Part shown: piece after piece, positions 6,997 through 61,180 of the stretch
Layout of the letters: each line of letters starts with the position of its first letter
How positions within the stretch are numbered: position 1 is the stretch's first letter
Assembly (NCBI GenBank): GCA_951406725.2
Contig: OX597816.1
Coordinates: 181,474,001 to 181,538,000, forward strand
Reading direction: 5' to 3'
From: Octopus vulgaris
Lineage: Eukaryota
DNA length: 64,000 nt
Notes under the pieces: model-generated
What the model was told of the DNA's origin: nothing
The model's input: the letters and a program-made list of their open reading frames with translations, nothing else
The model's database searches: none
Program-made: the position numbers and the translations under genes

Positions 6997-7139
6997 CTTT
7001 AGTCATGCATTCAACTTAAATATTTATTAAGCCAAGTGCTTATTCTATCGGTTTTTTTGTTGAACTGCAGAGTTATAGGGTCTGAAATACATCAGCATCA
7101 ATTGTCAAGCGGTGGTGGGGGACAAACACAGCCACGAAG

Positions 7140-7299
7140 ACATACATACATTCATACATTACATACATACATGCATACATACATACAAACATGCATACAT
7201 ACATACATACATACATGCATACATACATACATACATACATATATACATGCATACATGCATACATACATACATACATGCATACATACATACATACATACA

Positions 7300-7330
<31 letters not shown>

Positions 7331-7332
7331 CA

Positions 7333-7363
<31 letters not shown>

Positions 7364-7530
7364 CATACATACATACATACATACATACATACATACATAC
7401 ATACATACATACATACATACATACATACATACATACATACATACATACATACATACATACATACATACATACATACATACATACATACATACATACATTA
7501 CATACATACATACATACATATATACATACA

Positions 7531-7561
<31 letters not shown>

Positions 7562-7890
7562 CATACATACATACATACATACATACATACATACATACAT
7601 ACATACATACATACATACATACATACATACATACATACATACATACATACATACATACATACATACATACATACATACATACATACATACATACATACAT
7701 ACATACATACATACATACATACATACATACATACATACATACATACATACATACATACATACATACATACATACATACATGCATACATACATACATACAT
7801 ACAGACATACATACAAACATACATACATACATACATACATATATACATACATACATACATACATACATACATACATACATACATACATAA

Positions 7891-7921
<31 letters not shown>

Positions 7922-8125
7922 CATACATGCATGCATACATACATACATACATACATACATACATACATACAAACATACATACATACATGCAAATACATAC
8001 ATACATACATACATGCATACATACATACATACATACATATATACATGCATACATGCATACATACATACATACATACATACATACATACATACATACATAC
8101 ATACATACATACATACATACATACA

Positions 8126-8156
<31 letters not shown>

Positions 8157-8238
8157 CATACATACATACATACATACATACATGCATACATACATACATA
8201 CATGCATACATACATACATACATATATACATACATACA

Positions 8239-8273
<35 letters not shown>

Positions 8274-8320
8274 CATACATACATACATTACATACATACA
8301 TACATACATATATACATACA

Positions 8321-8351
<31 letters not shown>

Positions 8352-8361
8352 CATACATACA

Positions 8362-8393
<32 letters not shown>

Positions 8394-8403
8394 CATACAT
8401 ACA

Positions 8404-8434
<31 letters not shown>

Positions 8435-8860
8435 CATACATACATACATACATACATACATACATACATACATACATACATACATACATACATACATACA
8501 TACATACATACATACATACATACATACATACATACATACATACATACATACATACATACATACATACATACATACATACATACATACATACATACATACA
8601 TACATACATACATACAAACATACACACATACATACATACATACATACATACATACATACATACATACATACATACATACATACATACATACATACATACA
8701 TACAAACATACACACATACATACATACATACATACATACATACATACATACATACATACATACACACATACATACATACATACATACATACATACATACA
8801 TACATACATACATACATACATACATACAAACATACATACATACATACATACATACATACA

Positions 8861-8891
<31 letters not shown>

Positions 8892-8981
8892 CATACATAC
8901 ATACATACATACATACATACATACATACATACATACATACATACATACATACATACATACATACATACATACATACATACA

Positions 8982-9015
<34 letters not shown>

Positions 9016-9088
9016 CATACATACATACATGCATACATACATACATACATACATATATACATACATACATGCATACATACATACATAC
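7140..9088. repeat. About 1.95-kb (TACA)n tetranucleotide array
   Basis: Direct reading. It generates all the HTYI/MYVC ORFs in the track. Confidence 0.98.
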
Positions 9089-9769
9089 ACGAGCGTGTAG
9101 GCAAACGAAAGAAAGTGGCACTAAACACGTTTGGCGAGAGTTATATATATTGTTTAATAAACAATTCGATTCGGTTCCATGCAACTTCAAGCTTCTTCGT
9201 CTCGTATAACTAACTTAGCTCTTCATGCTTAGTCGAACTAAGCTTGAAAAGCTATGTTCGTATTCCGAGCACACAAAACTTTAAATTGCATGGAACCGAA
9301 TCAAGCACACAAACACACACACACACACACACACATGTATATGTGTGTGTGTGTACTCACACACACACATGTATATGTGTATGTGTGTACTCACACACAC
9401 ACATGTATATGTGTGTGTGTGTACTCACATACAAGAATTTTTGGCGTAATGAGATAAAAAACCAAGGCTGTATGTTCTAATATATATGTTTTTTTTTATC
9501 TCATTACGCAAAAAATTCTTATACACACGCTGACATAGAACCAACGTTGAACCCTTTATTCTCAAAATTACCGAATCTGGAACTTAACTATGGTCTGTCT
9601 ATAGCATTTATTCAGCATTACCTGACACCTTTGGGTCTCAATGACAATATTAACTCTTATAACCTCAATTTCTCGCAATATATATATACATCTAATGTAC
9701 GGTAAAATTTTTAGAAAAAAATTTTGTCGATGGCCAGCATATTAAAAAATACCTTTAAAGGTTAAATTT

Positions 9770-10536: not shown

Positions 10537-11776
10537 TTTCGGTTATTGAACTGCGGCTTGTCTCAGTCATGCTGGAAGTATTTTAGTCGAACTAATTGAC
10601 CCAGTATCTATTGATTTAATCCTGGTACTTAACTTATCGGTCTCTTTTGCTGAACTACTAAGTTTCTGGGACGTAAACGAGTCACCATATTTTGTCAAGT
10701 GGAGTGGTGGCAGATAAATACAAACACAAAGACTCACACACAGTTTCCGCTTATCAAATTCACTCACAAGCTATTCGTTGTGTATAATAGAGCATACTTA
10801 TCCAAGGTGTTGTGCAAGGGATCGAGCCCGAAACCAAGAGGTTTCAAAACGAGCTTTTTAACCACATAACTATACCTGCATCTGAAATTTTTGTAAATTT
10901 CATACAGAATCTACTTCGATACTTCACATTTCTGTGTTCCTATCCCCGGACAGGCGGCGGGGTGTTGGAATCCTTAGACCCCCGGGCCAAATGCTTAACT
11001 GTGTTTCTCCCGTCCGTTTGTTCTGAGTTCAAATTCCGCCTAGGCTGACTTTGCCTTTCATCCTTTCAGGGTCGTTAAAATATGTACAAGTTTAATACTG
11101 GGATTGATTACATCGACTTCACTACTTCTGGGTAAAAGCATACAAAAACTGCATCCCATTGTCAAGCCATGTTGAGCCAGTGTGGCAGAACAGGCTCATC
11201 AAAACAGTTATGACCCCAAGCTCAAATTCATGGCCATCGCATCAGACCGTGGTTGATGGAGAGGACATGCTGCGGCCCTTGCCCACTCCATTACTCAGAC
11301 AATATCCACCAAGTAGAAAAATGCTTCTTCTGAAACAGAAATCAATATGCAAAACAATTAGCAATTTGTACGATAACTAACCAAGCTAAAATTGTATTGA
11401 TGTAGGCATTTGAAATAGTATTAGATTAAAATACTGATGCGCATAGCATTTATAATGTAAATACTAACATGAAGGGCACTAGCTGTCTGGGTGTAATCGT
11501 CTCTGAGGAGGCGAAGTTAGGCTGGAACAACATCTCTGGCGAACTATCGATATTTTGAATGAGCCTTCTATTTTTAATTTACAAATCTTTGACAAGCTTC
11601 TCAATAACAAAATTTTACAATTACTGTTGTCCTACGTTTAAATATACTTTATAAATGTTATACGCATCGGCACACACACACACACACACACACAGACACA
11701 CACAGACACAGACACACACAAGCACACACAGACACACATATGTATATGTGTGTGTGTACTCATATATATATATATA

Positions 11777-12358
11777 TAATAGAAATATTAAAATTACTAA
11801 GTCTCTCTAAAAGAGAACAACGGCAGCGTTTCCGGAAAATAATAGTTATCGCCATACTAATATGGCATTCTTATAAAAATAAGAATAAAGCTGTCCGCTT
11901 ATTAGCTCCATGAGGCCATCGCCTTAAGTTAGCTATTTGATACACAAACTGTATCCATATAACCTTCGAATAAGAATGCCATATTAGTATGGCGATAACT
12001 ATTATTTTCCGGAAACGCTGCCGCTGTTCTCTTTTAGAGAGACTTAGTAATTTTAATATTTCTATTATTGAAAACAAGTGGATGTATTCCACCGAAGCTA
12101 GGTAAATAAAACCTTCGAACAGAGATTGTCAGAAGCGACACCTACTGGTCTGGCTACGCTACATTGAAAAGGGGCAATACCCCGAAACGCGTCTGTAGCT
12201 GCCGGTCAAGTAGTGTGGAGCGACTGACCTCCCTTGTTCGAAGGTTATATGGATACAGTTTGTGTATCAAATAGCTAACTTAAGGCGATGGCCTCATGGA
12301 GCTAATAAGCGGACAGCTTTATTCTTATTTTTATAAGAATGCCATATTAGTATGGCGA

Positions 12359-12366
<8 letters not shown>
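11777..12366. mobile_element. Retrozyme/Penelope-pLTR-like non-coding element: 363-nt unit plus inverted partial copy
   Basis: 11970-12003 recurs at 12333-12365 (period 363). 11777-11970 is the reverse complement of the unit read across its junction. One HHR per unit; (TA)n on both sides. Confidence 0.75.
12158..12199 (+). ncRNA. Minimal type I hammerhead ribozyme, U3-A8 core variant
   Basis: GCTACA | TTGAAAA | GGGG caata CCCC | GAAA CGCG TC | TGTAGC. Stems I and II are perfect, and the GUC cleavage triplet ends at 12193. Confidence 0.85.
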
Positions 12367-44546: not shown

Positions 44547-47500
44547 ACTTAGAATAACTTAGAAAGTGTTTGGCCAGTATTGGCCCAGGCCATGTCTAAC
44601 TTAATAGCACCACCAAGCGAAGTCTTTTAATTCAGTATTTGGGCACCAAGGCCCATTCAAGCAGAGAGTTATTGTTTGCGGAGACATATCCGGGTGTGGG
44701 TGGTTTGTCCGGTACTGTTTGAAGGAATTTGTCTAAAGACATCTTGAATTTTGTGTGGTCAGTTTCTGTTTTGACGTGTCCTGGTGTAATGTTGAAGAGA
44801 GCGGGTCCAATTGAGATGAAATAATTGTGCCGTATTGTTGTTATGAGATTTAGATTTTTGTTGTGGACGGATGGCACGTGGTCCAAGCCTTGGATGTATT
44901 TTGAAGGTGATGCCAACATCATTTGGACAGTGGTGATGGAATATTTTCCACATCATACAGATAATGTAGCGTTCACGGCGTCGTTGGAGTGAATACAGTT
45001 TCAGCTTTTCTAGTCGACCCCAGTAGTCGAGGTCTGACATGCCATCTATCATTTTTGTGATTGACCTTTGGGGAGCTTCAACTTTCATAATATTCCGTTT
45101 CGTGTAGGGAGACCACAATGGGCAGCAGTATTCAAGGTGGGGTCGGGCAAAAGTGGAGAAGAGAAGGATAACAGTGTGGGAATCTCTCGACTGGAAGGTT
45201 CTGAGAATCCAGGAACACATTCTGCGGGCCATGTCAACTTTGCTGCATATATGTGTAGCCCAGCTTATGTTGTTGTCCACGGTTACTCCCAAGTCTCTGA
45301 TGTTGTTGGACGCCATGAGAATTTCTCCAGAAGGAAGGGAGTATGGGAGTTTCAGAGCGTCCTCCCTTCCAAAGTGGATCAGTTCGAATTTGTCTTCGTT
45401 TAACAACGTGTTGTTCTTTTCCGCCCATTGGACAACAGCCAGTAGGTCTGACTGAAGGCTTATCCGATCATCCACGCCATTGATGACCTTCTGGAGCTTG
45501 GAATCATCAGTGAAGATTCTGATGTTACTGTGTTTGATCAAGTCAGTAATGTCATTAATGTAGATGATGAAGAGAAGTGGGCCCAACACAGTGCCTGGTG
45601 GGACACCACTACTGACTTTGGCTGGGCTGGATTTGACTCCTTCGACTTCAACATGTTGGGTTCTGTTAGACAGGAAGCACTTGATCTACTGCAGCAGCTT
45701 TCCAGTTACACCAATATTGGACAGCTTTCTCAGAAGGGATCAACCCTGTCAAAGGCCTTGCTGAAATCAAGGTAGATAACATCAGTGTTGGAACCCTCTC
45801 CCAAGACTCTCAAAATGTCATCAATATGATGCAGTAGCTGCGTCAGGCAATCCCTTCCATTACGGAATCCATGCTGGTTGGAGTTCAGCATATTATGACT
45901 CTCAAGGAAGTGAGTCATTCGCGATCTCACCACTCTCTCAAATACCTTAATGATATGAGAGGTGAGTGAGATTGGGCGGTAATTCACGGCAAGCGATTTG
46001 TTTCCTTTTTTGAAAACTGGGACAACAGACAGGGATAGAAGGTCTTCTGGTATATATCCAGCATCCAGTGAGTTCTGCCACAGATTGGCTAGAGGGGGTA
46101 CAAGTTGGTGTTGATACATCTTCAAGACACAAGCAGGGAACCTATCGGGACCTACTGCTGAATTATGCTTGATTCCTTTATTGCTGCTAAGACATCAGGG
46201 GCACTAAAGGTTATGTCCGATAAAGTATATTAAAGAGTAACATCACAGATACAGCCCAGATCAGTCATATCAGGATTGCTGAAAACAGAACAGTATTGTT
46301 TCTGCAGCATCTCTCTCATGGCTTTGGCATTGTCTTGAAGAGTACCATTTTCAACAATCAGAGGGCCAACAGCAGAACCAGTGACTCTGTGTTTTTTTGC
46401 AAATGAAAAGAACACTTTGGGGTTGAGTTTGATCTTCTCAATGGCCCTGGCCACTTCAGCTCTTCTCTGACTATTGATGATAGACATCATGTTGTTTTGG
46501 AGGTTATGTTTTTTAATCTCTAGTGACGTGATGGCAGTCAGGTTGGTGTGTTGCTGTTGACAGTATTTCAGCTTGTTGATTTTTTTGTTAGTTCTTTTAA
46601 TTTTCCTGATGAGAGTTTTTCTATTTCTAGGGATTCTGCACTTAGATTTGTTTGCAGATCTTAATGGGGGGTGTTTTGCACATATGTTCGTAATGGTGTC
46701 TACAAATGACTGCCAGGTCTTTCTGATGTTAGTGGGTGTGTATGTGTGCATGAAGGACCAATTGACTTGTGCAAGATCATTCCTGATCGCTTCCCAGTTT
46801 GCGTTGTGGAAATCCATAGTGTCAAATGGATGGACAGGAAGGATGACGTTTGTTTTGCATTTTGGCCGGTGAAATCTCAGATCACAGAGAACCATGTCAT
46901 GATCAGAGAGTAGAGTTTTCTCCACTGCAATATGGTGGATAGTGTCAGTATGATTGTTGAAAATTAAGTCTAGGACGTTTTTGTGACATCTCGTTGGTTC
47001 GAGCACCAGTTGGGACAGGAAGAAATCATCCATGAAGTCAAGATGCGATCCCACTGCCTCCCTGTCAGGGGTTGAGAGAGAAGAACCTGGCGGCAGGCTG
47101 TTTGTAGACCAGTCAACCCCGGGAAGGTTGAAGTCTCCCATCATTAAAATGTTGTCAGGTTGACACTGCTGAATAAAACATTTTATGCTGTTGAGGCATT
47201 CCTTGAAGCATGGTAGGGGCGTTTGGGGTGGTCTGTAGACCCCAACTACTATTAGGTTGTTGGTTTGACTGAATACAGCGACTGTTTCGCAGTATCCATT
47301 GGAAAATATGTTTATAGCTTCTGTTGAGAATGAATCATGAACATAAATGGCAGTCCCACCCTTTCTTCTGCCAGCACGATCAGCACGAATGGTTTTGAAA
47401 TTTTTAACTTTCACCTCGGCTTCCAAGTGGAGGTTACTAAGATGGGTTTCAGTGAGGACGAAGAAAGGGATGCGGTTTGGATGGGCATCGACCCAGTCCT

Positions 47501-47792
47501 CCAGGATTTTTATCTTCCATTTTTGAGTATTGCTGGGCATTAAGCAAAAATGTTGAGGCAAGAGTGGATGGTTTTAATTGTTTTGGTGTTTTGTTTACTT
47601 GTGTGCTTTTTAATGGCATGTGCAGTGGGGTGATAGTGGTGGATGGTGGTGGGTGATAGCTCGGATGTTTTTTCCAGTTCTTTTGCTAGATTCATTATAG
47701 CTAAAAAAGAGGAAGAAGTTTCCTGTCTAGGGAACTATAGGTGACTGTGGTTGTGGTTATTTCTATATGAGTGGTTATTTCTGTATGAATCA

Positions 47793-47861: not shown

Positions 47862-48411
47862 AGGTACATATGTATATATGTATATATATGTATACATATG
47901 TATATATGTATATATGTATATATATGTATATATATATGTATATGAGTCACATATGTATATATATGTATATATATATATATATATGCATATATATGTATAT
48001 GTATATATATGTATACATATATGTATATATATATAGGTATATATATGTATATAGATGTACGTATATATGTATATATACATATACACATACACACACACAC
48101 ATACACATATATATATGTATATATATATATGTGTGTGTAGAATCGTTAGCACGCCGGGCGAAATGCTTTGCGGTATTTCGTCCGCCGCTGCGTTCTGAGT
48201 TCAAATTCCGCCGAGGTCGACTTTGCCTTTCATCCTTTCGGGGTCGATAGATTAAGCATCAGTTGCGCACTGGGGTCGATGTAATCGACTTAATACCTAT
48301 GTCTGTCCTTGTTTGTCCCCTCTATGTTTAGCCCCTTGTGGGTAGTAAAGAAATATATATGTGTGTGTACATATATGTATATATGTATATATATATATGT
48401 CTATATATGTA

Positions 48412-48455
<44 letters not shown>

Positions 48456-48586
48456 ATACAGGTGGGCTGAGGACAACAACATGCAGTTTAACGCAGGTAA
48501 GTTCCAGGCCCTGCCCTACTGGCACACAAAGGTAAACGATATGCAGACTGGATACACTGGCCCGGGAAGAATTGCAATCCCCATGG

Positions 48587-49807
48587 TCTACAGGGTAGAC
48601 CATAATATCCTACTCTCAAAATTGGCAAATGTTGGAATCCATGGAAAAGTTCTACACTGGATTAAGTATTTCCTGGCGAATAGAACACAACATGTAGTTG
48701 ATGGAGTCCACTCAAGCCCAGCAAAAGTCACCAGCGGTGTCCCCCAGGGGACTGTCTTGGGTCCGCTACTCTTCATAATTTACATAAACGACCTTTCCAG
48801 TGTCGTACATTACTGCAAAGTGAAAATATTTGCTGATGACACTAAGCTCCAACAAATCGTCAATGAAGAAGCAGACCGAACTCAACTCCAGTCTGATCTA
48901 TATGCTGTGAGTCAATGGGCAGACAGAAACAAAATGCAACTGAACGAGGGAAAATTTGAGCTGATGCATTTTGGAAGAAATTCCTCACTAAAACAGCCAT
49001 ACTCTCTTCCTTCAGGGGAACCGCTCACAGCCTCTAACAATATCAGAGACCTGGGAGTAATTGTTGATGACGATCTCAGTTGGAGTGCACACATCAACAA
49101 GAAGGTCGATATAGCTCGTAGGATGAGTTCCTGGATCTTAAGAACTTTCCGGTCCAGAGAACAAGGTGTCATCATACCACTTTTCTCCTCCTTTGTACAG
49201 CCACACCTCGAATACTGCTGCCCACTGTGGTCTCCCCATACAAGACAAAACATATCGAGGATTGAATCACCCCAGAGAGCACTCACTAAACAAATTGAAG
49301 GCATGGCTGCTCTCGATTATTGGGATCGCCTTAAAGCCTTGAAACTCTACTCTCTCCAGCGTCGCCGTGAGCGGTACATCATTTGTACGATGTGGAGAAT
49401 ATACCGCCAACTTTGCCCAAACGACCTGAACATTAGCTTCAAGGTTCATCCAAGACTGGGACCACGGGCCATACGTCCCCTACCCAATTCAAGATCACAG
49501 CATACATGTACACTGCAACATAATTTCTTTTCCTCAACAGGCCCTGCCCTATTTAACATTGTCCCGAAAGAGATCAAAGAGAAAGAGGATCCCATCAACT
49601 TTAAACGGAGTCTGGATAGATTCCTTCAAGGAATACCAGATAAGCCACCCATAATTGGATACAACTCACCCAACAAGAACTCACTACTTGAATGGACCAT
49701 AAACAAAACTTGACTTAAACAGGATTCAAATAATCCTATCAGGTGGTGCTATTAAGTTAGACATGGCCTGGACCAATCTTTGGTCGAAACATATCTAAGT
49801 TTATCTA

Positions 49808-51339: not shown

Positions 51340-53240
51340 CCTTAGAATCAAAGAAGCAACAACTGTAGGACTGTATGAGAACCCTCATAAACTACCAAAG
51401 AGCTGCAGAAGAAGTCTGTGCCATTAAAAACATAAAGATTAATCCTAATGTCTTTTACTCCTTTGCAAAATCCCATAGGACCATTTTTTCCTTTATCGAC
51501 CCACTGGTTGGTGGAAACGGCATCCTTCATAGTGATGCCAAAGACATGGCTGAGGTCAATACAGCTCTGTTTTCAGTGACCCTGATTCAGTTGACTCAAG
51601 CAGATTTGTTTCTTTGAATCCTCAGCGTGTCCTTTCCGACATAACCTTCGACGCCACTGATATCCTAGTAGCAATAAAAGAAATCAAACCTGATTCAGCA
51701 GTGGGTCCGGACAGGTTCCCTGTTAGAGTGCTGAAGAAATGCAGACAGCAACTTGCAGCACCTCTTGCAAATCTCTGGAGGAAGCCACTGGATGCCGGTT
51801 TTATCCCTCAAAACCTTCTCTTCTCCCATCTTTACAAAGGGTAATAAATCGCTCTCCGTAAACTACCGTCCAATCTCAACTCACATATCATCAAAGTATT
51901 TGAGAGAGTGTTGAGATCAAGAATAACAGCCTTCCTCGAACAAAACTCTCTCCTAAATTGCAACCAGCGTGGCTGACGTGGTGGTTGCGACTGTGTAACA
52001 CAGTTCCTCCACCACTTTGATGACATCTTAAGTGCACTAAGTGAGGGCTCCAACGCGGATGTCATATATCTTGATTTCAGCAAGGCCTTTTAACAGAGTC
52101 GACCACAATATACTGTTAAAGAAACTATCCAACGCTGGAGTCGGTGGAAAGCCACTTCAATGGATTAGGTATTTCCTAACAAACAGGACCCAGCATATTG
52201 TGGTTGATGGCATCTACTCAAGACCAGCAAAAGTCATCAGTGGAGTCCCGCATGGTACTGTGCTGGGTCTACTTCTTTTTATTCTCTATATCAATGACAT
52301 TGCAGATTCCATTGAACATAGCACCATTAAAATTTTTGCAGATGACTCTAAGCTCCAGAAAGTCATTAAGGGAGCAGATGATCGAACAATGCTTCAATCG
52401 GATCTATGTGGGCACAAAAAAAAAAAACAAACATTATGCAGTTGAACCAGGAAAAATTTGAGCTCATCCGTTTTGGAAAAGAGGGCACACTCAAACAACC
52501 ATACACACTACTGTCAGGAGACCTGCATGAACCGTCGGATAATATCAGGGACTTAGGTGTAACTGTCGACAGCAACTTTAGCTGGAGTGTGCACATCAAC
52601 AAAAAAGTCAGTGTTGCCCGCAGAATGTGTTCATGGATCCTCAGAACTTTTCAATCTAGGGATCATGAAACCATCATCATTCTCTTCTCCACATTCGCTG
52701 CCCATTGTGGCCCCCCTGCAAAAAACAAGATACAATGAGGATCGAAACGCCACAAAGATCAATCACAAAAAATAAATGGCATGATGGGACTTGATTATTG
52801 GGCTCGACTTAAACAGTTGAAGCTCGATTCTCTGCAACGCCGCCGTAAGCGATATTTTATTTGCACTATGTGGAAAATATTCCAACAATATTATCCAAAT
52901 GATATCGGTATTATGTTTACAATTCACCCAAGACTAGGCCCCTGTGCTATGCGTTCCCTACAAAGGTTGAGGTCCCAATCACATAACAATGCGATACAAT
53001 TTCTTCACAGCAAATGGTCCTGCACTTTTCAATGTTATCCCGAAAGAAATTAAAATAGAAAAAGACACCACAATTTTCAAACGGTACCTGGACAAATTCC
53101 TTCAGAAAGTACTGGATAAACCACCTACACCTGCATACGTCTCAACCAACAACTCTGTTTGAGTGGTCCATGGTGTCCTGAAATAATTAACTAAAAGACT
53201 ACTGAGTTAGTTATGGCCTGAGCCGATAATGGCCGGATTT
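51340..53240 (+). pseudogene. Decayed CR1-group LINE ORF2
   Basis: Frameshifted pieces: GPDRFP, GVPHGTVLG, IFADD, LQRRRKR. Paralogous to the two LINEs above. Confidence 0.9.
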
Positions 53241-59639: not shown

Positions 59640-61180
59640 ATTGTTCTACGTTCTGTTTTAACAGACGTAGTAGACTGTTGTTCCCCTCCATAAAGAGGGG
59701 AAAATAAATTTTGAAAAAAATATTCTGGAAAATATTTATTTTTGTGAAAATGAATTCGGAGGACGGGTCTTCTAACCGTGACCAAGCTAACCAAAGAGGG
59801 GCTGCAAAACAAGAGAAAATGAACGAAAATGTGAAGGAAAGTCAATGCTGAAAACTGTAAAATGAATAACGGAAAAGTAAACCCAACAGAAGACAACCAA
59901 AAGAAGATTAATTTTGCCACCGCAGCCGGTGTGAGAAAAGATAAATTGAACATAGATCTAGATTCACTACGGCAACACAGAGGTATGTTCGAAAGGGAAG
60001 GTTTTGATATTAAAGCCACCCTCCCTAACGAACTCATCGAAGAAACAAAGAGCTCGAAACCGCTTGTGAGACGCTCTATTTGCTGTCAACAACCGTTAAA
60101 GGGTGAACTACGGATGCCTTGGCTACTGATGCACAGACATGCGCTGAGGCTGAGGCATCTGTGTCTCTACCTGGATGGTGAACGGGTGTGGTCTTCGCTG
60201 CTGAAACAGATGTTTCCCAGGTTCACTAGTTTCGGTGGACGGGTAACCTGGTTCAGTCGCAGATCGAAGGAGTGTCGCAAGGCACTCCTGCTTTTCCGTC
60301 GCTCGGGCAATGCCTGTGGCAGTCGCTCCACCGTTGTCTTTTATAGAGGGTTTGTAGAGGCGGAATGCGATGATACATTGGGGGAGACCCTAGGTTTTGA
60401 CGATAATCAGCTGGCCAGTCTGTTCCAACGTACATTCGGGCCGAAGACCCTGGATCATTTTCAGAAGTCTTTGGCATGGCAGTGTTACCGCGGAGCCTTA
60501 CCTGTCCGGGATTAACTCTCAAGGCACAGTGGCCGAGACACCCCGATCTGTCCAAGATGTGGGCGGGACAAGGAAACCGTCCCGCACGCTATTGCTCAGT
60601 GCCCTGAAGTGTCTGGCTTGTGGGTTTATGCCGAACAACTGATGTCAGGTGGAGGAAGGGTACGGCTGTTGACTGAATCTATAGTGAAAATTAACCCACC
60701 GGATTTCTTAACGAAAGAAGGTAAGAATTGTTTTCTCTCTGTAGTAGCAACTGTGAGAGGGATTAGACGGAGGACAAGAATAAAAGGGATACGGTCAGGC
60801 ACCTTCATCTCTGACCCTGATCTGGTGAATTTTTTCATCTTCCTCCAGAAAGGCAAACAGGGCTGGAGAGGAGATGTTTGACTGATGACATGTTTGGAAA
60901 AAAAATGGAAGAATGTCGCACGAATATTGAGCATGAAAGGCTCCGCGTGAATGCGATTTGGTTTAAAAACCCAGGTCAGTGGTAAGGCGGGGTTCGTGGG
61001 GTCCGTTATAAACCCGCCTCTACTCCATCTGTTATGCCTTATTGTGTCCTATCATCATCCGCATTATATATAATGTATTTAGAATTTTTAAAAGGACCCC
61101 AATCGCATTTCTTGTAAAATCATTCGATTTCATTGTGCAGTCCCTTCTATGGATGTCCTTATCGATAGTAAAAAATAAAA
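59640..61180 (+). mobile_element. Tx1/L1-clade LINE, internally deleted
   Basis: LAWQCYRGALPVRD*L...CPRCGRDKETVPHAIAQCPEVSGLW (CCHC zf-RVT-type). No APE or RT core in between. A-rich 3' end at about 61170-61182. Confidence 0.7.

What the first reader, a model, noticed from the sequence alone, without database searches (positions are those of the whole stretch)
11777..12366. 363-nt circularly permuted ribozyme unit: candidate cephalopod retrozyme or circular RNA
Seen: the plus strand from 11971 runs through one U3-A8 hammerhead (12158-12199; perfect stems; GAAA-CGCG-UC) and returns to its own start at 12334, a period of 363 nt. The inverted segment 11777-11970 independently reads across that same end-to-start junction. 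The HHR caps a long imperfect rod (AACCTTCGAAC 12110-12120 pairs with 12236-12246; GTCAG/CTGAC; CTACT/AGTAG). There is no credible ORF, and (TA)n lies on both sides. Established: non-LTR retrozymes are tandem units of a few hundred nt with minimal HHRs that yield circular RNAs; Penelope pseudo-LTRs give similar tandem and inverted layouts. Inference: copied from a circular or multimeric RNA template by a borrowed RT. This is the best candidate for an undescribed system in this window.
Basis: partly seen in the sequence, partly recalled or inferred. Interest (0 to 1): 0.92.

Follow-up and report, generated by a model that had tools for sequence, protein, structure and literature searches.

The report
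Penelope-driven hammerhead retrozyme family
This is one copy of a small, protein-free jumping element with a self-cutting RNA motif; it belongs to a known class (retrozymes), and its many copies keep clues to how it was pasted in, probably from an RNA circle by the enzyme of a Penelope-like retrotransposon.

Summary
A 363-nt unit with a U3-A8 type I hammerhead forms a 396-nt forward arm and a 199-nt inverted arm inside (TA)n. It belongs to a young, ORF-less family with at least 1,811 ribozyme copies, arrays up to 5.5 units and several subfamilies with covarying stems. This is a non-LTR retrozyme, a known class. No coding Penelope-like element (PLE) carrying this unit was found, but the search was partial. 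Copies are not randomly permuted: 3' ends sit at unit position ~35 or ~98 (a 63-nt PLE 'tail') and 5' ends are truncated. In head-to-head inserts with both ends at these sites, 63 of 64 pair one of each. A coding Neptune-like PLE in the genome shows the same asymmetry, target and ribozyme variant. Units within an insertion share haplotypes; 11 locus-private variants occur in every unit of an arm, pointing to rolling-circle copying of one monomer. Expression, cleavage and circles are not shown. Verdict: new member of a known kind with an unusually clear mechanistic record.

The parts
11762..11778 (.). left (TA)n target remnant
   Evidence: sequence
11776..11974 (-). inverted arm, unit positions 263-363 + 1-98; its 3' end (11776) is the distal start site u98
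   Evidence: 197/199 to doubled unit
11776..11838 (-). 63-nt PLE-type tail (u36-98) between the two start sites
   Evidence: family 3' ends at u35 and u98
11970..11974 (.). head-to-head junction, 5-nt overlap of the two arms
   Evidence: 48 of 63 heterotypic junctions overlap by 0-6 nt
11970..12365 (+). forward arm, 1.09 units; 3' end at u32-35 (proximal start site; exact base blurred by TA)
11971..12333 (+). 363-nt retrozyme unit, 41% GC, no credible ORF
12030..12092 (+). u60-122, nearly invariant between subfamilies A and B (59 of 60 in alignment columns 60-119 versus 84% overall); candidate protein-recognition region (inferred)
12110..12246 (+). long imperfect rod capped by the ribozyme; 5' ends of copies pile up at its 3' base
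12158..12199 (+). type I hammerhead, U3-A8 core, palindromic stem III (predicted to work as a dimer), predicted cut 12193/12194
   Evidence: variant described in PMC4209133
12363..12419 (.). right (TA)n target remnant, 28.5 units

Best explanation
A non-autonomous, PLE-mobilised non-LTR retrozyme. (1) Inferred: transcription through a tandem array gives multimers, whose hammerheads pair through the 6-nt palindrome and cut at C17, releasing 363-nt monomers. (2) Inferred by analogy with PMC7229834: a host ligase closes the monomer. A lone hammerhead lacks a stable stem III, so the circle should be stable. (3) Signature shown, enzyme inferred: a C-terminal GIY-YIG, Neptune-like PLE protein cuts both strands in (TA)n. 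The two DNA ends prime at two internal RNA sites, u35 and u98, each ending in CTATTAT, one end per site. (4) Inferred: each cDNA runs round the circle for 0.1-5.5 turns and often stalls at the base of the rod. (5) Shown as a pattern: the two cDNAs are joined head-to-head through short overlaps; single-arm inserts also occur. Odds: about 0.9 for the class and PLE-type integration, about 0.65 for a circular template.
For: Family and no ORF: 1,518 candidates, 40 scored, nearly all matches 96-100% identical; 1,811 exact ribozyme matches, control 0; arrays to 5.5 units. Fixed 3' ends into (TA)n: 1,030 exact u98 ends and 306 exact subfamily-A u35 ends. The gap between two start sites is the PLE tail (PMC11167929). 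Asymmetry: in 118 loci, 83 head-to-head pairs; of the 64 with both ends canonical, 63 are u35+u98, 1 is u98+u98, 0 are u35+u35. The coding Neptune-like family (RT + CX4CX2C + GIY-YIG) ends in (TA)n, has U3-A8 hammerheads and a tail ending CCTATTAT. Of 25 tail-ended copies among 30 loci, 10 had an inverted arm: 9 untailed, 1 unclear, 0 tailed. One template per insertion: at 24 polymorphic sites, segments differ 2.1% within an arm, 2.3% between arms and 18.9% between loci. Of 128 locus-private variants, 101 are in one unit, 11 in all successive units of an arm, 3 in both arms, 1 partial, 12 covered once (58 loci). In 30 of 63 pairs neither arm lies inside the other, which excludes simple fold-back copying there. 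Only 1 of 164 5' ends is near the cut site (about 5 expected), while 31 lie at the rod base (about 10 expected). Stem I, stem II and the palindrome change on both sides across 19 representatives.
Against: No RNA evidence of a circle, a monomer or cleavage. No coding PLE shares sequence with the unit: 70 GIY-YIG loci were compared, so the helper is assigned by shared signatures only. The tail is 63 nt, against about 34 nt in the Neptune-like family and the 30-40 nt in print. An A6G core variant is in 2 of 3 units at L009 and 2 of 2 at L027; a mixed array is not what one circle gives. 19 of 83 head-to-head pairs have at least one non-canonical end. In print, hammerhead cleavage was dispensable for PLE insertion in vitro (PMC11167929), metazoan minimal PLE hammerheads cleaved weakly (PMC4209133), and 8 of 9 frog retrozyme dimers did not cleave (10.64898/2026.07.22.740005). 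Array-wide variants could also come from homogeneous linear multimers or later homogenisation. The covariation counts come from a few related subfamilies, not 19 independent events.
Confidence: 0.72

Rival explanations
1. Same element and PLE machinery, but the template is an uncleaved linear multimer from genomic arrays. The ribozyme is slow or idle and no circle is needed.
For: Internal initiation on unprocessed RNA and no need for cleavage in vitro (PMC11167929); 5' ends ignore the cut site; mixed A6G array at L009; arrays of 4-5.5 units exist as possible sources.
Against: 11 private variants fill all units of an arm, and one fills four units over both arms at L256. No private variant showed the pattern of one register in both arms but not in the others. 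This needs frequent passage through a single monomer. The ribozyme stems and palindrome covary.
Confidence: 0.17
2. The unit is the pseudo-LTR of a coding PLE not yet seen, and the copies are its 5'-truncated ends.
For: Full PLE end signature; only 150 of 6,136 GIY-YIG candidates were scored; Xenopus retrozymes resemble pLTRs (10.64898/2026.07.22.740005).
Against: 1,514 places read through u98 into the following unit sequence. Only 34 read through and then leave the unit by u142-147 (I estimate this pattern catches about half of such places). None of the 30 fetched runs into an RT frame. PLE-protein tblastn hit 5 of 90 and 2 of 60 family loci, none as ORF-then-unit. No shared non-unit 5' flank was found in 98 loci.
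Confidence: 0.07
3. A dispersed minisatellite whose arrays and inversions arose at the DNA level after insertion, by unequal exchange, conversion or fold-back repair.
For: Array-wide shared variants can arise by homogenisation; L009 is mixed; fold-back self-priming was proposed for PLE inversions (PMC3846280).
Against: Fixed RNA-type 3' ends at (TA)n and strict u35/u98 pairing; 30 of 63 pairs cannot be copies of each other; 101 single-unit variants show that units are not generally homogenised.
Confidence: 0.04

Closest known systems
Non-LTR retrozymes (Cervera and de la Pena 2020, PMC7229834), e.g. mussel Mytilus galloprovincialis repeats of 350-390 nt
   Same: Tandem ORF-less units of a few hundred nt, one type I hammerhead each, GC under 45%, strongly self-paired, thousands of copies, coexisting with PLEs.
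   Different: U3-A8 core of the PLE type; short dispersed arrays in (TA)n with fixed PLE-type ends and head-to-head arms, not mentioned in the passages and sections I read; RNA circles not shown here.
EN+ Penelope-like elements, Neptune-like, with pLTR, tail and inverted 5'-truncated arm (PMC8557442, PMC3846280, PMC11167929)
   Same: Two RT start sites, tail on one arm, 5' truncation, inverted arm, microsatellite target, hammerhead with palindromic stem III.
   Different: No ORF; the unit repeats itself head-to-tail; tail 63 nt rather than 30-40; no sequence match to any PLE end examined.
Xenopus retrozymes as non-autonomous PLE derivatives (bioRxiv 10.64898/2026.07.22.740005)
   Same: Non-autonomous, PLE-dependent model.
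   Different: There the link is pLTR homology and co-occurrence. Here there is no homology, and the link is the insertion signature shared with a resident coding family.
U3-A8 minimal hammerheads of Schistosoma Cercyon PLEs (PMC4209133)
   Same: Same core covariation; motifs also found in opposite-strand pairs 100-700 bp apart.
   Different: Here stem I is 6 bp, stem II 4 bp, stem III a 6-nt palindrome, on a long rod in a tandem unit.

Membership tests
Non-LTR retrozyme | Tandem unit of about 170-400 nt, dimers to multimers | tested here: met
   363/362-nt period; arrays to 5.5 units
Non-LTR retrozyme | Type I hammerhead in each unit | tested here: met
   1,811 exact matches; core nearly invariant in about 110 subfamily-A segments; stems covary; U3-A8 variant; no Rfam hit
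Non-LTR retrozyme | No coding capacity, GC under 45% | tested here: met
   six-frame translation; GC 0.41
Non-LTR retrozyme | Expressed as linear and circular monomers | tested here: inconclusive
   only contigs of runs guessed to be RNA were available; these cannot show ends or circles
Non-LTR retrozyme | Self-cleavage | not testable with these tools
   needs an in vitro assay
pLTR of a coding PLE | Flanks an RT + GIY-YIG ORF | tested here: not met
   the search was partial (150 of 6,136 GIY-YIG candidates scored)
PLE-type integration | Two 3' ends separated by a tail, tail on one arm | tested here: met
PLE-type integration | 5' truncation with inverted arm; microsatellite or AT-rich target | tested here: met
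   83 head-to-head pairs in 118 loci; (TA)n after the ends
PLE-type integration | Target-site duplication | tested here: inconclusive
   cannot be read inside (TA)n
Neptune clade (candidate helper, 781-aa ORF) | RT, CX2-5CxxC linker, C-terminal GIY-YIG | tested here: met
   linker definition from PMC8557442
Neptune clade (candidate helper, 781-aa ORF) | RT phylogeny separating Neptune from Nematis | not tested
   no reference set was fetched
Viroid-like RNA replicon with ribozymes in both polarities | Ribozyme on both strands | tested here: not met
   one hammerhead, plus strand only, by regex; other ribozyme classes covered only by Rfam

The most novel reading that the evidence does not exclude
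The family is a genomic record that a retrozyme is integrated by rolling-circle reverse transcription of one RNA circle, with a PLE protein priming the two ends of a double-strand cut at two different start sites on that RNA. This would explain PLE tandems, inversions and the one-sided tail together, argue against fold-back self-priming, and give a 363-nt substrate to test it.
Probability: 0.5. Interest if true: 0.65.

Novelty: new member of a known kind. Interest (0 to 1): 0.45.

Why it matters
How retrozymes return to DNA, and how PLEs form tandem and inverted inserts, are stated as open in the papers read (PMC7229834 discussion; PMC8557442; PMC11167929). This family gives countable genomic evidence: strict pairing of two start sites, the same asymmetry in a resident coding PLE with intact ORFs, and single-monomer haplotypes in arrays. 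It turns the proposed circle-plus-PLE model into a direct in vitro test. As a catalogue entry it is modest. My searches found no paper describing an octopus or cephalopod retrozyme, and the text of a 2026 octopus repeat annotation lacks the words retrozyme and ribozyme. Subscription papers, repeat databases and supplements were not seen.

Tried and rejected
Rfam: 0 matches. RNA: no RNA holder listed. Contigs of four runs guessed to be RNA cover most of the stretch and bridge the predicted cut site, but contigs cannot show ends, strand or circles and may be DNA or read-through; not used as evidence either way. Search for a coding parent: GIY-YIG loci (70 compared; only a separate opposite-strand subfamily B copy at L049, a composite at L078 and 19-26-nt chance hits); Smith-Waterman against 13 PLE 3' regions gave scores at or near shuffled levels in the part of the output shown; read-through-then-diverge pattern; shared 5' flanks, none; other stem II variants, 8 matches, an unrelated older family. 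L159 looked like a PLE-unit fusion, but the PLE fragment is antisense to the unit piece. The bacterial promoter scan is not applicable. Earlier findings: none by place or sequence. One search had end-alignment artefacts and was replaced. Rows dropped before counts: 22 duplicate loci, plus the window's own locus; L111-L140 were not in the end counts, arms under 93% identity or 60 nt and bases near ends or gaps; 2 of 21 rod representatives (one chimeric, one deleted). The 63 includes one pair counted twice (segmental duplicate in L180) and possibly L088/L102. Sets L081-110 and L171-200 were selected on the u98 end. The two sets not selected on ends give 27 of 27 heterotypic.

Full report
Observation. 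All stated features are present. The unit 11971-12333 is followed by its own first 32 nt. The inverted arm 11776-11974 equals unit positions (u) 263-363 plus 1-98 at 197/199. The hammerhead at 12158-12199 has a U3-A8 core, 6-bp stem I, 4-bp stem II and a 6-nt palindrome in place of stem III, with the predicted cut at 12193/12194. It caps a rod with z -6.72. Rfam gave no match. (TA)n lies on both sides. I recognised no PLE ORF among the 63 window frames of 120 aa or more (read by eye).

A dispersed young family. The host genome is 2.8 Gb in 227 contigs. The unit gave 1,518 candidates, of which 40 were scored, nearly all matches at 96-100% identity. A second subfamily is collinear, 362 nt, 84% identical and also tandem, and intermediate ones exist. 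Exact patterns count 1,811 family ribozymes, 1,514 read-throughs of u98, 1,030 ends at u98 into (TA)n and 306 subfamily-A ends at u35; reversed-pattern controls were 0. Arrays reach 5.5 units. Across 19 rod representatives, 8 of 52 pairs change on both sides (1 of 500 shuffles as high), including stem I, stem II and the palindrome, which switches between two self-complementary forms, 9 and 10 sequences. These are related sequences, so this reflects a few events.

Not the end of a coding element, as far as tested. Only 34 places read through u86-105 and then leave the unit by u142-147. The 30 fetched are alternative ends, deletions or indels, and none enters an RT frame. PLE proteins hit 5 of 90 and 2 of 60 family loci, none as ORF followed by unit. 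Seventy GIY-YIG loci showed no terminal repeat like the unit. The limit is that only 150 of 6,136 GIY-YIG candidates were scored.

PLE integration signature. 3' ends fall at u35 or u98, both ending CTATTAT and followed by (TA)n, and 5' ends scatter. In a purified PLE, two internal RT start sites define the genomic tail, and both DNA strands are cut and extended (PMC11167929, parts 1-2 of 4 read). Inverted 5'-truncated arms, a tail at one end and microsatellite bias are known PLE traits (PMC8557442 and PMC3846280, passages read). Here the pattern is nearly absolute. In 118 loci there are 83 head-to-head pairs; 63 pair u35 with u98, 1 pairs u98 with u98, none u35 with u35, and 19 have another end. 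One pair is counted twice and some sets were selected on u98; the two sets not selected on ends give 27 of 27. Junction overlaps are 0-6 nt in 48 of 63. In 30 of 63, neither arm can be a copy of the other, as in the window locus, which argues against the fold-back model of PMC3846280 for those inserts.

Candidate helper. The genome holds a young family with a 781-aa RT-CX4CX2C-GIY-YIG frame in many intact copies; I call it Neptune-like from the linker, without a tree. It ends in (TA)n and carries U3-A8 hammerheads with the palindrome of subfamily B. Its tail of about 34 nt ends in CCTATTAT (160 matches). Of 30 loci, 25 end at the tail; 10 of these have an inverted arm, 9 untailed, 1 unclear, none tailed. 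It shares no detectable sequence with the unit, other PLE families also end in (TA)n, and the tail lengths differ. So the helper class is well supported and the helper family is not identified.

Circle or multimer. In 58 subfamily-A loci (274 segments), polymorphic sites differ 2.1% within an arm, 2.3% between arms and 18.9% between loci. Of 128 locus-private variants, 101 occur in one unit, 11 in all successive units of an arm (one in four units over both arms, L256), 3 in both arms, 1 partially (a segmental duplicate) and 12 were covered once. A mutation in one unit of a source array can fill a daughter array only through a monomer, so monomer-to-multimer copying is frequent; rolling-circle RT is the simplest route (inference). 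5' ends avoid the cut site (1 of 164) and cluster at the rod base (31 of 164), so linear cut monomers are not the usual template. Against: L009 has an A6G core in 2 of 3 units, homogeneous linear multimers cannot be excluded locus by locus, and published PLE and frog retrozyme hammerheads often cleave poorly (PMC4209133, parts 1-2 of 4; 10.64898/2026.07.22.740005, parts 1-3 of 5). Expression and circles remain untested.

Comparison and verdict. It works like, and by sequence criteria is, a non-LTR retrozyme (PMC7229834: abstract, passages, sections 14 and 17 read; mussel units 350-390 nt; PLEs proposed as helpers). U3-A8 is a described variant (PMC4209133). Searches for retrozyme with octopus or cephalopod, for PLE inversion with twin priming and for rolling-circle evidence since 2021 (0 papers with all five terms) found no description of such a family or of the private-variant argument. 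PMC13282606 (passages) lacks the words retrozyme and ribozyme. No supplements were read; they and repeat databases may hold this sequence under another label. An earlier AI note on a shark PLE reads inversions as built at insertion, which agrees but is not evidence. Verdict: new member of a known kind, interest 0.45. The strict two-site priming and the monomer haplotypes are what a specialist could use.

Noticed in passing
L061-L077 (e.g. G000:C16:20836744-20839089): Young Neptune-like PLE family with many intact 781-aa RT-GIY-YIG frames, an overlapping upstream frame of up to 479 aa with no Pfam match above cut-off, a long repetitive 3' region and a U3-A8 hammerhead with weak stem I.
   Followed up: partly
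L078:2280-4980 (G000:C3:70145279-70147979): Composite insert: tailed retrozyme arm, a 44-nt retrozyme piece, the end of another PLE-like family, then a 5'-truncated Neptune-like copy with an untailed end. Could be one event with template switches (which would tie the helper to the retrozyme) or nested insertions.
   Followed up: partly
L009:1288-2261 and L027:1461-2324: An A6G change in the ribozyme core in 2 of 3 and 2 of 2 units, at two unlinked loci that differ at u43; probably inactive ribozymes that were still copied.
   Followed up: partly
L272-L275: Another high-copy repeat end (1,341 candidates) with two 3' ends about 90 nt apart, ending in (TA)n; L272 and L275 have an inverted arm ending at the proximal site. 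No PLE protein hit within 1.5 kb.
   Followed up: partly
L276-L280: An older family (67-79% mutual identity) with a U3-A8 hammerhead but a different stem II, inverted arms and ends at microsatellites; no blastn match to this unit and no PLE protein hit nearby; possibly a second retrozyme.
   Followed up: partly
(runs X1-X20): The stretch is held at 0.55-0.95 of its words by runs under seven organism labels (A-G), so the family probably spans related species.
   Followed up: no
window 44759-47573 (-), 48349-49713 (+), 52041-52445 (-), 59835-60881 (+): Frames that look like LINE endonuclease and RT fragments (CR1-like and L1/Tx1-like by recalled resemblance; not scanned).
   Followed up: no
window about 7000-9100 and 9324-9433: A roughly 2-kb (CATA)n microsatellite, and a 34-nt tandem repeat whose unit resembles the sequence just left of the insertion at 11730-11761.
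   Followed up: no
L159:820-2030 (G000:C1:30482639-30483849): Subfamily B insert abutting a degraded PLE RT fragment in antisense, with part of the junction duplicated and inverted nearby.
   Followed up: yes
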